From Escherichia coli (GTDB lineage: Bacteria > Pseudomonadota > Gammaproteobacteria > Enterobacterales > Enterobacteriaceae): a DNA stretch of 64,000 nt. Shown here in pieces: positions 47,001 through 50,000 of the stretch; position 1 is the stretch's first letter, and every line of letters begins with the position of its first letter. The position numbers were made by a program. Where the stretch lies: NCBI RefSeq assembly GCF_045037415.1, contig NZ_CP173438.1. One strand, given 5' to 3'.

Positions 47001-50000
47001 GCGTTTCACGCAGTGCCTGGGCGAGGTTGTTAACACTCTGACTGATTTGCCCCATTTCACCGGGCAATTGTGGTAATCGAGTGGGAATATTTTGAGCCAG
47101 AGTCGAGAGGCCATCGGTGATGATATCTATATTGGCGCTCAGGCGACGGGAGAAAAGGACAATCAACAGCAGGCTTATCAGCAAACCGGCGGTGAGCACA
47201 ATGATAATCCTCACATCCATTTTCCAGGCCTGGCGGCGAATATCTTCGGTTAATTCATTGGCCCAGATATAGCCGAGGATTTCACCATTACGCTCAATGG
47301 GAATCATTGAATTCAAAATATCGCCGCGCACCTGCCTGCCTGAATAAACCAAAGGGGTATTTGTACGCATGACTTCGCGACCAGGGTGATCTGCGGCAAT
47401 GGTAACGCCCACATTATTCTGATATAGCGCTGAAGGCGCGTAGGTGATTATCGCATCCAGCGTTTTGTTGTAATAACCAGCGCCGATGCCAGGGAAGGCG
47501 TGAGTGATATTTTCGGTAATGGGGGCAAGTTCTGCATTTAATGCGCGGATACGCTCCTCACGCGGTAAGTCGATGTAGAGATCGTAGCGATTGCCTAGCG
47601 CCTGATTAAGCAGGTTGACCACGGCAGAAAGTTTTTTCTCTTTTTCAGATAAGACTGCTGAACGTCCTTCCGTTTCTACGATATAACCAATAGTAAGCGT
47701 TGGGACAATGACCATCAGGATTGCCATCAGGATCATTTGATTGCGTAAGCGGCGTGGATAAATCCACTTCATATAATGCATGCTGAAATCCACTAGTCTT
47801 GTCCGGTATATGACGATTATCAGAGGTTAAGGTGATGATTTCTCGGCGGTGTATCATATTCCAGAGAAGAGAGAACATTGCGGTAACACGCTTTTACCGC
47901 TACCTTAACCACACTCCATCGGTCACCTGAGGCGGAGCTTCGCCCCTTTGAAATACCTTGCTTCTTTTCGTACAACCCTGAAAGCCTCGCGCTACATGTT
48001 CAGAGCATTGGCGTTAGTGCTCTGGCTGTTGATTGCTTTTTCATCCGTTTTTTACATCGTTAATGCGTTACATCAGCGAGAATCGGAAATTCGTCAGGAA
48101 TTTAATCTGAGTTCCGATCAGGCTCAGCGCTTTATTCAACGCACCTCTGATGTGATGAAAGAGCTGAAGTACATAGCTGAAAATCGCTTATCGGCAGAAA
48201 ACGGTGTGCTTTCCCCGCGTGGACGAGAAACGCAGACGGATGTGCCTGCGTTTGAACCGCTGTTTGCTGACTCTGATTGTTCCGCAATGAGTAACACCTG
48301 GCGAGGTTCTCTGGAGTCATTGGCGTGGTTTATGCGCTACTGGCGCGATAATTTTTCTGCGGCTTACGATCTAAACCGGGTATTTTTAATCGGCAGCGAT
48401 AACCTCTGCATGGCCAATTTCGGTCTGCGTGATATGCCAGTGGAACGCGATACCGCGCTAAAAGCTTTGCATGAACGCATTAATAAATATCGAAATGCAC
48501 CACAAGATGATAGTGGCAGTAACCTCTACTGGATCAGCGAAGGTCCGCGCCCTGGCGTCGGGTATTTTTACGCCTTGACGCCAGTTTATCTGGCGAACCG
48601 GTTGCAGGCGCTTTTGGGTGTCGAGCAAACCATCCGGATGGAGAACTTTTTCTTACCTGGTACGTTGCCGATGGGGGTTACCATTCTTGATGAAAATGGT
48701 CATACCCTGATTTCGCTTACCGGACCAGAAAGCAAAATTAAGGGCGATCCTCGCTGGATGCAGGAACGCTCCTGGTTTGGCTATACGGAAGGGTTCCGGG
48801 AACTGGTGCTGAAGAAAAATCTGCCACCCTCATCGCTAAGCATCGTTTATTCAGTGCCAGTTGATAAGGTGCTGGAACGCATTCGCATGTTGATCCTTAA
48901 CGCAATTTTGCTGAATGTGCTTGCCGGAGCTGCATTGTTTACTCTCGCGCGGATGTACGAGCGGCGTATTTTCATTCCGGCGGAAAGCGACGCCCTGCGA
49001 CTGGAAGAACATGAGCAGTTTAATCGCAAGATTGTCGCCTCCGCGCCAGTGGGTATCTGCATTTTGCGTACCGCTGATGGCGTCAATATTTTAAGTAACG
49101 AACTGGCGCATACTTATCTCAATATGCTTACGCATGAGGACCGCCAACGGCTGACACAAATTATCTGTGGGCAGCAGGTCAATTTTGTTGATGTCCTGAC
49201 CAGCAACAATACCAATCTGCAAATCAGCTTCGTCCATTCGCGCTATCGTAATGAAAACGTGGCCATTTGTGTGCTGGTGGATGTTTCTTCGCGCGTGAAG
49301 ATGGAAGAGTCGTTGCAGGAGATGGCACAAGCAGCGGAACAGGCGAGCCAGTCAAAATCGATGTTCCTGGCCACCGTCAGTCATGAGCTGCGAACGCCGC
49401 TGTATGGCATTATCGGTAACCTGGATCTGTTGCAAACCAAAGAGTTACCGAAAGGCGTCGATCGTCTGGTGACGGCAATGAACAACTCTTCCAGCCTGTT
49501 GTTGAAAATTATCAGCGATATTCTCGATTTCTCGAAAATTGAATCAGAACAGTTGAAGATCGAACCGCGTGAGTTTTCACCGCGTGAAGTGATGAACCAC
49601 ATCACCGCCAACTATTTACCGCTGGTGGTACGCAAGCAGTTAGGCTTGTACTGCTTTATTGAACCGGATGTGCCAGTGGCCTTAAATGGCGACCCGATGC
49701 GTTTACAGCAGGTCATCTCCAACCTGTTGAGTAACGCCATAAAATTCACCGATACCGGCTGTATAGTTTTGCATGTTCGCGCTGATGGCGATTATCTCTC
49801 TATCCGTGTTCGCGATACCGGCGTGGGGATACCGGCGAAAGAAGTGGTGCGCTTGTTTGATCCCTTCTTCCAGGTCGGAACGGGCGTACAGCGTAACTTC
49901 CAGGGGACTGGTCTGGGTCTGGCGATTTGTGAAAAACTGATCAGCATGATGGACGGCGACATCTCGGTAGATTCAGAACCGGGAATGGGCAGCCAGTTTA

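What the first reader, a model, noticed from the sequence alone, without database searches (positions are those of the whole stretch)
47948..47950. rcsC reading frame begins with TTG
The ORF encoding MKYLASFRTTL... starts with ttg at 47948, preceded about 10 nt upstream by GGAG; there is no in-frame ATG near the N-terminus. A TTG start implies low translational efficiency for the sensor kinase.
Basis: seen in the sequence. Interest (0 to 1): 0.15.

Follow-up and report, generated by a model that had tools for sequence, protein, structure and literature searches.

The report
rcsC's known, conserved TTG start codon

Summary
The window is E. coli chromosome. The ORF 47948..50797 (+) is rcsC (949 aa). 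TTG at 47948-47950 and GGAG at 47934-47937 (10-nt spacer) are confirmed. An in-frame TAA at 47906-47908 rules out any upstream start.

Codon 17 (47996-47998) is ATG, and it was the start in the 2006 K-12 annotation.

The TTG is nevertheless the true start:
- RefSeq and K-12 (b2218, NP_416722.2) annotate it.
- Tetracycline ribosome profiling gives depth 117/39/44 at the TTG against 0/0/3 at the ATG.
- Ribo-RET supports it, and the N-terminal peptide MKYLASFR has been detected.
- Codon 17 is Leu in 72 of 80 Enterobacteriaceae sequences.
- Codons 3-16 show synonymous variation with conserved amino acids.

New here: TTG-AAA is invariant in 85 of 85 intact orthologs and in at least 5,409 of 5,422 complete E. 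coli genomes, although synonymous sites are saturated. That points to selection for a weak start. Low translational efficiency is plausible but was not measured here.

Verdict: already known, ordinary, low interest.

The parts
47878..47883 (+). -35-like hexamer TTGCGG of the rcsC promoter
   Evidence: This block is conserved in all Enterobacteriaceae loci whatever lies upstream. It is homologous to the Salmonella SL1344 promoter annotated 'Sigma 70 (-10 & -35)' for the mapped rcsC TSS (PMC3293720 supplementary file 2). Assigned by homology, not mapped in E. coli here.
47901..47906 (+). -10-like hexamer TACCTT, 17-nt spacer from the -35
   Evidence: It has a weak match to TATAAT (T1, A2, T6), so the consensus scan missed it.
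47913..47947 (+). inferred 35-nt 5' UTR of rcsC, with the TSS at A 47913
   Evidence: Salmonella dRNA-seq gives a primary TSS with a 35-nt UTR. The E. coli sequence aligns in register: TACCTT-aaccac-A.
47906..47908 (+). in-frame TAA stop that closes the frame upstream
   Evidence: It also lies upstream of the inferred TSS.
47934..47937 (+). Shine-Dalgarno-like GGAG, 10 nt before the TTG
   Evidence: The anti-SD duplex over -20..-1 is -7.5 kcal/mol, against -0.1 for the region before ATG17. GGCGGAG is at least 91% conserved per position in 55 of 79 loci and absent in the others.
47931..47944 (+). possible small hairpin GGCGG-AGCU-UCGCC that half-occludes the SD
   Evidence: It folds at -6.5 kcal/mol, no better than shuffled sequence. 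There are no compensatory changes, and pairs are broken in the Kosakonia and Klebsiella groups. A putative CsrA site was proposed upstream of the Salmonella rcsC start codon (PMC7241856); whether it is this GGA-containing element was not checked. Unproven.
47948..47950 (+). TTG initiation codon of rcsC, decoded as fMet
   Evidence: Annotation. TetRP depth 117/39/44. Peptide MKYLASFR and Ribo-RET support. Invariant in 85 of 85 intact orthologs. At least 5,409 of 5,422 E. coli genomes carry it.
47951..47953 (+). second codon AAA (Lys), invariant at the nucleotide level
   Evidence: It is AAA in 80 of 80 sequences. It is one of only 5 degenerate codons that are invariant among 493 columns.
47996..47998 (+). 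in-frame ATG at codon 17, the former (2006) annotated start, not used
   Evidence: TetRP depth is 0/0/3.2. There is no SD. The codon is Leu in 71 and Phe in 1 of 80 sequences; it is ATG only in Escherichia and a Superficieibacter-like group.
47948..50797 (+). rcsC coding sequence, 949 aa plus stop
   Evidence: the ORF listing. NCBIfam NF008099 RcsC equivalog scores 1842 bits (cut-off 920) with profile positions 1-948 matched. RefSeq CDS has the same coordinates.

Best explanation
The ORF is rcsC, the hybrid sensor kinase and phosphatase of the Rcs envelope-stress phosphorelay, and its genuine initiation codon is the TTG at 47948.

Shown:
- In Salmonella the mRNA starts 35 nt upstream of the homologous TTG, from a weak sigma-70 promoter. 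The promoter sequence is conserved in the window.
- Initiating ribosomes sit on the TTG and not on the ATG at codon 17.
- The mature protein carries Met-Lys-Tyr-Leu... at its N-terminus.
- Codons 2-16 are under amino-acid-level purifying selection.
- TTG plus the following AAA are invariant across Enterobacterales, although neighbouring synonymous sites are saturated.

Inferred:
- The near-cognate UUG, read by initiator tRNA with a first-position mismatch and subject to IF3 discrimination, together with a long (10-nt) SD spacing and a poor -10 hexamer, keeps RcsC synthesis low.
- This low setting is maintained by selection because the RcsC level sets the kinase/phosphatase balance acting on RcsD and RcsB.
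- The invariant AAA second codon partly compensates, making initiation reliable at this low level.
For: Identity:
- NF008099 equivalog scores 1842 bits over the full length.
- Gene order is atoS / rcsC / rcsB-rcsD.

Annotation:
- ATCC 11775 places the rcsC CDS at window 47948.
- K-12 b2218 (NP_416722.2) starts at the identical ttg.

Experiments from the literature:
- TetRP moved the start by -48 nt to TTG, with depth 117/39/44 against 0/0/3.2 at the old ATG (PMC4909307, Table S2 row 32).
- The TRAINSPOTTER N-terminomics table lists MKYLASFR (residues 1-8) for b2218 as a database-annotated TTG start, with Ribo-RET (BL21) support (PMC13245402, Table S1 row 477).
- The Salmonella primary TSS lies 35 nt upstream of the homologous start (PMC3293720).

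Comparative evidence:
- TTG is codon 1 in 79 of 79 Enterobacteriaceae species loci and in 5 of 5 distant gyrA-linked orthologs.
- Codon 17 is a Leu codon in 71 of 80 sequences.
- Of 28 columns that translate as Leu in all 80 sequences (codon 1 included, read as Leu), only codon 1 uses a single codon.
- Only 3 of 87 four-fold degenerate sites are transversion-free.
- Only 5 degenerate codons of 493 are invariant, and two of them are TTG1 and AAA2.
- 5,409 of 5,422 E. coli genomes are identical over -30..+30, and none matches an ATG or GTG variant exactly.

Dosage sensitivity:
- RcsC amount changes RcsB activity in Salmonella (PMC7241856).
- Overproduced K. pneumoniae RcsC is described as poorly expressed and prone to mutation.

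General background:
- UUG gives 10-100% of AUG output.
- Selection generally favours AUG (PMC5622118), so an invariant UUG runs against the default trend.
Against: - No direct measurement of rcsC translation efficiency or RcsC copy number was obtained, because the proteome and synthesis-rate papers were not held.
- The TetRP signal at the TTG is comparable to other genes in the same table, so 'low efficiency' is not demonstrated.
- The E. coli SD region is not weak in energy terms (-7.5 kcal/mol). Only its spacing is suboptimal.
- The SD is not conserved outside about 55 of 79 loci, so a 'weak ribosome-binding site by design' is not uniform.
- Invariance of the first T could also reflect constraints other than expression level.
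Confidence: 0.9

Rival explanations
1. The real start is the ATG at codon 17 (47996-47998), giving a 933-aa protein as in the 2006 annotation. On this view the TTG is merely the first start-like triplet of an ORF that happens to stay open upstream.
For: An in-frame ATG exists 48 nt downstream. It was the annotated start in U00096.2. Mechanical 'first start after a stop' rules over-extend the neighbouring genes: rcsB is listed as 231 aa from TTG against the annotated 216 aa from ATG, and atoS as 612 aa from GTG against the annotated 608 aa from ATG.
Against: TetRP depth at the ATG is 0/0/3.2 against 117/39/44 at the TTG. The peptide MKYLASFR has been detected. Codon 17 is Leu or Phe in 72 of 80 sequences. 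Codons 3-16 show the synonymous-variation signature of translated sequence. There is no SD before the ATG (-0.1 kcal/mol). The NCBIfam profile covers residues 1-948.
Confidence: 0.02
2. Escherichia uses dual initiation. Most RcsC starts at the TTG, but the lineage-specific L17M change created a second, minor start that yields an isoform lacking the 16-residue basic cytoplasmic tail.
For: ATG17 is present in Escherichia and in one other small group. Arg-C N-terminomics could not see such an isoform, because its N-terminal peptide would be MFR, only 3 residues long (inference). In-frame alternative starts are common in E. coli.
Against: The TetRP signal at the ATG is essentially nil in three samples. 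There is no SD. A predicted 10-11-bp stem-loop begins a few nt after the ATG (48000-48025). No row for a downstream rcsC start appears in the stored part of the N-terminomics table.
Confidence: 0.05
3. The TTG is the start, but its identity is not selected for weakness. It persists through ordinary purifying selection on any functional start, or through a local sequence constraint, and says nothing about RcsC dosage.
For: Start codons in general evolve slowly (PMC5622118). The TTG-AAA-TA block could be constrained as a unit for ribosome binding. No expression data were obtained here.
Against: T-to-A or T-to-G would give an equally or more functional start, and general selection pushes toward AUG. 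Yet there are 0 changes in 85 lineages, while 84 of 87 four-fold sites in the same gene show transversions. None appears in 5,422 E. coli genomes either. RcsC dosage affects signalling.
Confidence: 0.25

Closest known systems
E. coli K-12 rcsC (b2218, NP_416722.2, UniProt P0DMC5, 949 aa)
   Same: The DNA is identical from at least -180 to +120 around the start. The CDS starts at the same TTG. Gene order is the same. Experimental start-site evidence applies directly.
   Different: Nothing relevant. The window comes from another E. coli lineage: the 601 bp around the start are 100% identical to several strains including ATCC 11775 and Nissle 1917, and the window as a whole is about 98-99% identical to ATCC 11775.
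Former rcsC annotation (U00096.2, 2006; 933 aa from ATG codon 17)
   Same: Same gene and reading frame.
   Different: The start was placed 48 nt downstream at the ATG. It was corrected in the 2014 record and confirmed by TetRP.
cya (adenylate cyclase) UUG start, the classic case in which a UUG start limits expression (from my own knowledge: Reddy et al., PNAS 1985; not checked here)
   Same: A regulatory or signalling enzyme needed at low copy number, initiated at UUG. The weak codon is thought to cap expression.
   Different: For cya, start-codon swaps were done and raised expression. For rcsC no such experiment was found.
Other experimentally supported TTG starts in E. coli and Salmonella, such as rpsT and sirA/uvrY
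   Same: A near-cognate UUG decoded as Met. rcsC is among the 10 TTG database starts detected by N-terminomics.
   Different: rpsT is highly expressed and autoregulated. No comparable regulatory logic has been demonstrated for rcsC.
infC AUU start with IF3 autoregulation (mentioned)
   Same: A non-AUG start makes initiation sensitive to IF3 discrimination.
   Different: For rcsC, IF3 sensitivity is only an inference. UUG is a far better start than AUU.

Membership tests
RcsC sensor histidine kinase (NCBIfam NF008099 equivalog) | Whole-protein score above the curated cut-off with end-to-end coverage | tested here: met
   1842 bits against a cut-off of 920. Protein residues 1-948 match profile positions 1-948 of 949, so the profile includes the 16 N-terminal residues.
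RcsC sensor histidine kinase (NCBIfam NF008099 equivalog) | Genomic context with rcsB and rcsD convergent downstream | tested here: met
   RefSeq features show rcsC (+) followed by rcsB and rcsD (-).
Genuine UUG-initiated protein-coding gene | TTG is the first canonical start after an in-frame stop and lies on the mRNA | tested here: met
   TAA at 47906-47908 with no ATG, GTG or TTG between it and the TTG. The TSS lies 35 nt upstream of the TTG, by homology to the mapped Salmonella TSS.
Genuine UUG-initiated protein-coding gene | Initiating ribosomes map to the TTG rather than to alternative in-frame starts | tested here: met
   From published data read here: TetRP depth 117/39/44 at the TTG against 0/0/3.2 at ATG17, plus a Ribo-RET (BL21) flag. 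The K-12 sequence is identical to the window.
Genuine UUG-initiated protein-coding gene | N-terminal peptide beginning with Met encoded by the TTG | tested here: met
   Peptide MKYLASFR, residues 1-8, in TRAINSPOTTER Table S1 row 477.
Genuine UUG-initiated protein-coding gene | Coding-type conservation begins at the TTG, and the alternative start is not conserved | tested here: met
   Codons 3-16 have conserved amino acids with variable third positions. The upstream -1..-3 positions vary. Codon 17 is Leu in 71 of 80 sequences.
Start codon selected for weak translation (expression capping, as for cya) | Replacing UUG with AUG raises protein output and alters phenotype | not testable with these tools
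   No swap experiment for rcsC was found in the papers searched. There is only indirect support from invariance.
CsrA-bound leader (GGA motif presented in a hairpin loop overlapping the SD) | Conserved stem-loop presenting GGA, plus evidence of CsrA binding | tested here: inconclusive
   A GGCGG-AGCU-UCGCC hairpin is possible but no better than shuffled sequence. It shows no covariation and is broken in some clades. The literature calls the site putative, and rcsC was not recovered in a CsrA CLIP study.
Sigma-70 promoter | -35 and -10 hexamers at 17-nt spacing with a mapped TSS 6-8 nt downstream | tested here: met
   TTGCGG-N17-TACCTT is conserved in all Enterobacteriaceae loci. The Salmonella dRNA-seq TSS falls 7 nt after the hexamer and is labelled 'Sigma 70 (-10 & -35)'. 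This is by homology only; it has not been mapped in E. coli here.

The most novel reading that the evidence does not exclude
The UUG start, with its invariant AAA second codon, is not just tolerated. On this reading it is actively maintained across Enterobacterales as a dosage governor for RcsC. It would hold the bifunctional kinase/phosphatase below a toxic or signal-distorting level, and might make its synthesis responsive to IF3 or CsrA status. A switch to AUG would then be deleterious.
Probability: 0.5. Interest if true: 0.3.

Novelty: already known. Interest (0 to 1): 0.1.

Why it matters
In practice it matters little, because the TTG start of rcsC is in the current K-12 and RefSeq annotations and has ribosome-profiling and N-terminal peptide support. 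Three points have modest value:

- The case shows how a lineage-specific Leu-to-Met change (codon 17) created a decoy ATG that misled the original annotation. Gene callers still mis-start orthologs.
- The order-wide invariance of a sub-optimal start codon, against the general drift toward AUG, is a clean natural example of a start codon apparently selected for weakness in a dosage-sensitive signalling protein.
- Anyone engineering rcsC expression, or making N-terminal tags or deletions, must use the 949-aa coordinates.

Tried and rejected
- The consensus promoter scan found nothing upstream. The promoter became visible only through cross-species conservation and the Salmonella TSS table.
- Folding of the leader and initiation region gave no structure more stable than shuffled sequence. 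The SD hairpin idea has no covariation support, so it is kept only as a possibility.
- The '- strand terminator-like' hairpin at 47880-47900 (z = -2.9) is simply the promoter spacer in E. coli and is not conserved as a hairpin.
- A PDB sequence search with the N-terminal 340 aa found no entry.
- The Ribo-RET preprint has no supplements held. INRI-seq supplements and one E. coli TSS supplement do not mention rcsC.
- The Li 2014 and Schmidt 2016 quantitative papers are not held, so no copy number or translation efficiency was obtained.
- Mapping ATCC 11775 coordinates directly onto the window failed because of small indels. It was redone on the record itself.
- L088 and L089 are frameshifted, pseudogene-like copies and were excluded from the TTG count.

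Full report
**What is there**

The 601 bp around the finding are 100% identical to many E. coli chromosomes, including ATCC 11775 and Nissle 1917, and the region is present in 5,422 of 5,426 complete genomes. The ORF 47948..50797 on the + strand encodes 949 aa. It scores 1842 bits against the NCBIfam RcsC equivalog NF008099 (cut-off 920), with residues 1-948 matched to profile positions 1-948. It sits between atoS (divergent) and rcsB-rcsD (convergent).

**Check of the observation**

- The sequence reads ...ctgaGGCGGAGcttcgcccct TTG AAA TAC CTT GCT TCT TTT CGT ACA ACC CTG....
- TTG is at 47948-47950. GGAG is at 47934-47937, leaving 10 nt before the TTG.
- Translating the frame upstream gives a TAA at 47906-47908. 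The 13 codons between it and the TTG contain no ATG, GTG or TTG.
- The statement that there is no in-frame ATG near the N-terminus is wrong. Codon 17 is ATG at 47996-47998 (MKYLASFRTTLKASRY-M-FRAL).
- TTG could not be accepted by default, so the real question was TTG versus ATG17.

**Annotation**

RefSeq (PGAP) for ATCC 11775 places the rcsC CDS at locus 4249..7098, which corresponds to window 47948..50797. K-12 MG1655 NC_000913.3 annotates b2218 (NP_416722.2) at 2317027..2319876 on the minus strand. The first three bases of that CDS are ttg, in a sequence identical to the window.

**Published experiments, read through the paper tools**

- Nakahigashi et al. 2016 (PMC4909307) mapped initiating ribosomes with tetracycline. 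Their Table S2 row 32 lists rcsC with a new initiation site shifted -48 nt to TTG, matching the 2014 re-annotation.
  - TetRP depth was 117, 39 and 44 at the TTG, against 0, 0 and 3.2 at the 2006-annotated start, which is the ATG at codon 17.
- The TRAINSPOTTER N-terminomics study (PMC13245402) lists in Table S1 row 477 the N-terminal peptide MKYLASFR (residues 1-8) for b2218.
  - It is classed as a database-annotated TTG start at NC_000913:2319874-2319876, with Ribo-RET (BL21) and elongation-profile support.
  - It is one of only 10 TTG database starts detected.
  - One caveat of my own: with the Arg-C specificity used, an isoform starting at M17 would give the peptide MFR, which is too short to detect. 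The proteomics therefore does not exclude a minor isoform, but the TetRP zeros argue against one.
- Salmonella SL1344 dRNA-seq (PMC3293720) maps a primary rcsC TSS with a 35-nt 5' UTR. Its promoter is ...CCGTTGCGGGCTACGTCATTTACCGCTACCTTAGTCACA, labelled sigma-70 -10 and -35.

**Comparative test done here**

A scan of one genome per species returned 80 Enterobacteriaceae loci at 79-99% protein identity.

- All 79 loci that include the N-terminus have TTG at codon 1.
- Codon 17 is ATG in only 7 of them (Escherichia and a Superficieibacter-like group). Elsewhere it is CTG, CTT, TTA, CTC, CTA or TTT.
- In several genera an in-frame stop lies only 2-9 codons upstream of the TTG.
- Codon by codon, with the window added to make 80 sequences, codon 1 is TTG 80/80 and codon 2 is AAA 80/80. 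Codons 3-16 keep their amino acids while third positions vary freely, for example T10 (ACC 30, ACG 30, ACT 14, ACA 6) and S14 (TCG 23, TCC 22, TCA 20, TCT 15). This is the signature of translated sequence.
- Five more distant orthologs at 43-56% identity, lying next to gyrA and of Erwinia/Sodalis type, also read TTG-AAA-TAY.
- Two further copies (L088, L089) are frameshifted and were set aside.
- The protein alignment shows MKYLxSFRTTLKxSRYLFR conserved down to 43% identity, with Leu and not Met at position 17.

**Is the invariance more than chance?**

- Across 493 ungapped codon columns, only 15 codons are invariant. Ten of those are Trp or Met. The five degenerate ones are TTG1, AAA2, two CAG and one CCG.
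- Of 28 columns that translate as Leu in all 80 sequences (codon 1 included, read as Leu), only codon 1 uses a single codon. The others use 3-6.
- Of 87 four-fold degenerate sites in invariant-residue columns, one is invariant and three are free of transversions.
- A neutral T-to-A or T-to-G change at the first base would therefore have been expected many times in this tree, yet it is never seen.
- Within E. coli, 5,409 of 5,422 complete genomes are identical over -30..+30. No genome matches an ATG or GTG version exactly.
- General studies find weak selection toward AUG (PMC5622118), so an order-wide invariant UUG runs against the default trend.

**Anatomy of the initiation region**

- Alignment of the upstream sequences revealed a block conserved in every Enterobacteriaceae locus, whether the upstream neighbour is atoS or a terminator on the gyrA side. 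In the window it is TTGCGG (47878-47883), a 17-nt spacer, TACCTT (47901-47906), then aaccacA.
- This block is homologous to the mapped Salmonella promoter and TSS. It places the E. coli TSS at about 47913 and gives a 35-nt leader. The consensus scan missed it because it matches only 7 of 12 positions.
- In E. coli, Citrobacter, Salmonella, Enterobacter and relatives (55 of 79 loci) the leader carries GGCGGAGCTTCGCC at -17..-4. The remaining loci have other sequences with little or no SD.
- The anti-SD duplex energy is -7.5 kcal/mol for the 20 nt before the TTG and -0.1 for the 20 nt before ATG17.
- A small hairpin (GGCGG/UCGCC) could half-occlude the SD. It is no more stable than shuffled sequence, has no compensatory changes, and is broken in the Kosakonia and Klebsiella groups.
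- A putative CsrA site upstream of the Salmonella rcsC start codon has been proposed but not demonstrated (PMC7241856). I did not check whether it coincides with this GGA-containing element.

**Mechanism**

Shown: transcription from a weak sigma-70 promoter (by homology), a 35-nt leader, initiation at UUG with Met incorporated, and no meaningful initiation at AUG17.

Inferred:
- UUG pairs imperfectly with the initiator tRNA anticodon and is discriminated against by IF3.
- In reporters, GUG and UUG give 10-100% of AUG output (Hecht et al., bioRxiv 063800).
- With the 10-nt SD spacing and a poor -10 hexamer, this should keep RcsC synthesis low.
- The invariant AAA second codon is consistent with the reported enrichment of A-rich triplets just downstream of start codons.
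- RcsC dosage matters. Changes of 1.3-1.9-fold accompany altered RcsB activity in Salmonella, where RcsC acts as a phosphatase. Overproduced K. pneumoniae RcsC is described as poorly expressed and prone to mutation.

**Comparison with what is known, and verdict**

This is E. coli rcsC with its currently annotated and experimentally verified TTG start, so it is already known. The closest functional analogy is the UUG start of cya, which caps adenylate cyclase expression (from my own knowledge, not checked here). The only increments are the Enterobacterales-wide invariance of TTG-AAA and the recognition that ATG17 is a lineage-specific decoy. Interest is low, at about 0.1.

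Noticed in passing
window 47878-47913: A conserved promoter block, TTGCGG-N17-TACCTT-aaccacA, is present in all ~79 Enterobacteriaceae rcsC loci whatever lies upstream. 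It matches the dRNA-seq-mapped Salmonella rcsC promoter and TSS with its 35-nt UTR. The consensus promoter scan did not report it.
   Followed up: yes
window 47880-47900: A 7-bp hairpin (GCGGTAA...TTACCGC, z = -2.9) was flagged as terminator-like on the minus strand. It is the spacer of the rcsC promoter in E. coli and is not conserved as a hairpin in other genera.
   Followed up: partly
window 47996-47998 (codon 17): Met17 is a lineage-specific Leu-to-Met substitution, found in Escherichia and a Superficieibacter-like group (8 of 80 sequences). It created the decoy ATG used as the start in the 2006 K-12 annotation.
   Followed up: yes
window 48000-48025: A 10-11-bp stem-loop (TCAGAGCATTGG...GTGCTCTGG) lies inside rcsC codons 18-26, immediately after ATG17, and was flagged as terminator-like. 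It is not more stable than shuffled sequence, and the codons involved vary between species.
   Followed up: partly
window 50997-51692 (rcsB) and 45955-47793 (atoS): The mechanical longest-ORF starts for the neighbours are wrong. rcsB is listed as 231 aa from TTG, but the annotated gene is 216 aa from an ATG at 51647. atoS is listed as 612 aa from GTG, but the annotated gene is 608 aa from an ATG at 47781. 'First start after a stop' is right for rcsC only by coincidence.
   Followed up: partly
proteins P0039, P0043, P0056, P0003; loci L085-L087: Public gene calls for rcsC orthologs are inconsistent because of the TTG start. One is truncated to an internal Met (MLWMLG...), two are extended upstream (MAASGLR-LKY..., MILASFLYLNGTG-LKY...), and one begins with L.
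   Followed up: partly
loci L016-L087 upstream regions; window gyrA region at about 28.4-31.0 kb: In most Enterobacterales, rcsC follows a Rho-independent terminator that lies directly downstream of gyrA in the four distant loci where gene calls were available (the upstream gene was not checked in the other loci). In Escherichia about 17 kb of other genes (yfaA-yfaP and the ato genes atoB through atoS) lie between gyrA and rcsC, yet the rcsC promoter block is retained.
   Followed up: partly
L088 (CP073323.1) and L089 (1.73-Mb genome, JAHAVA010000001.1): These rcsC copies have multiple frameshifts at the 5' end, so they are either pseudogenes or assembly errors. L089 comes from a reduced genome and has also lost the clean TTG-AAA register.
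   Followed up: no
whole window against ATCC 11775: Among 45 complete annotated CDS in the corresponding 64 kb, rcsC is the only TTG start. Four genes use GTG (ais, nudI, the alpha-2-macroglobulin gene, yfaQ). The window is about 98-99% identical to ATCC 11775, with small indels near 10.2 kb and 20.6 kb.
   Followed up: partly
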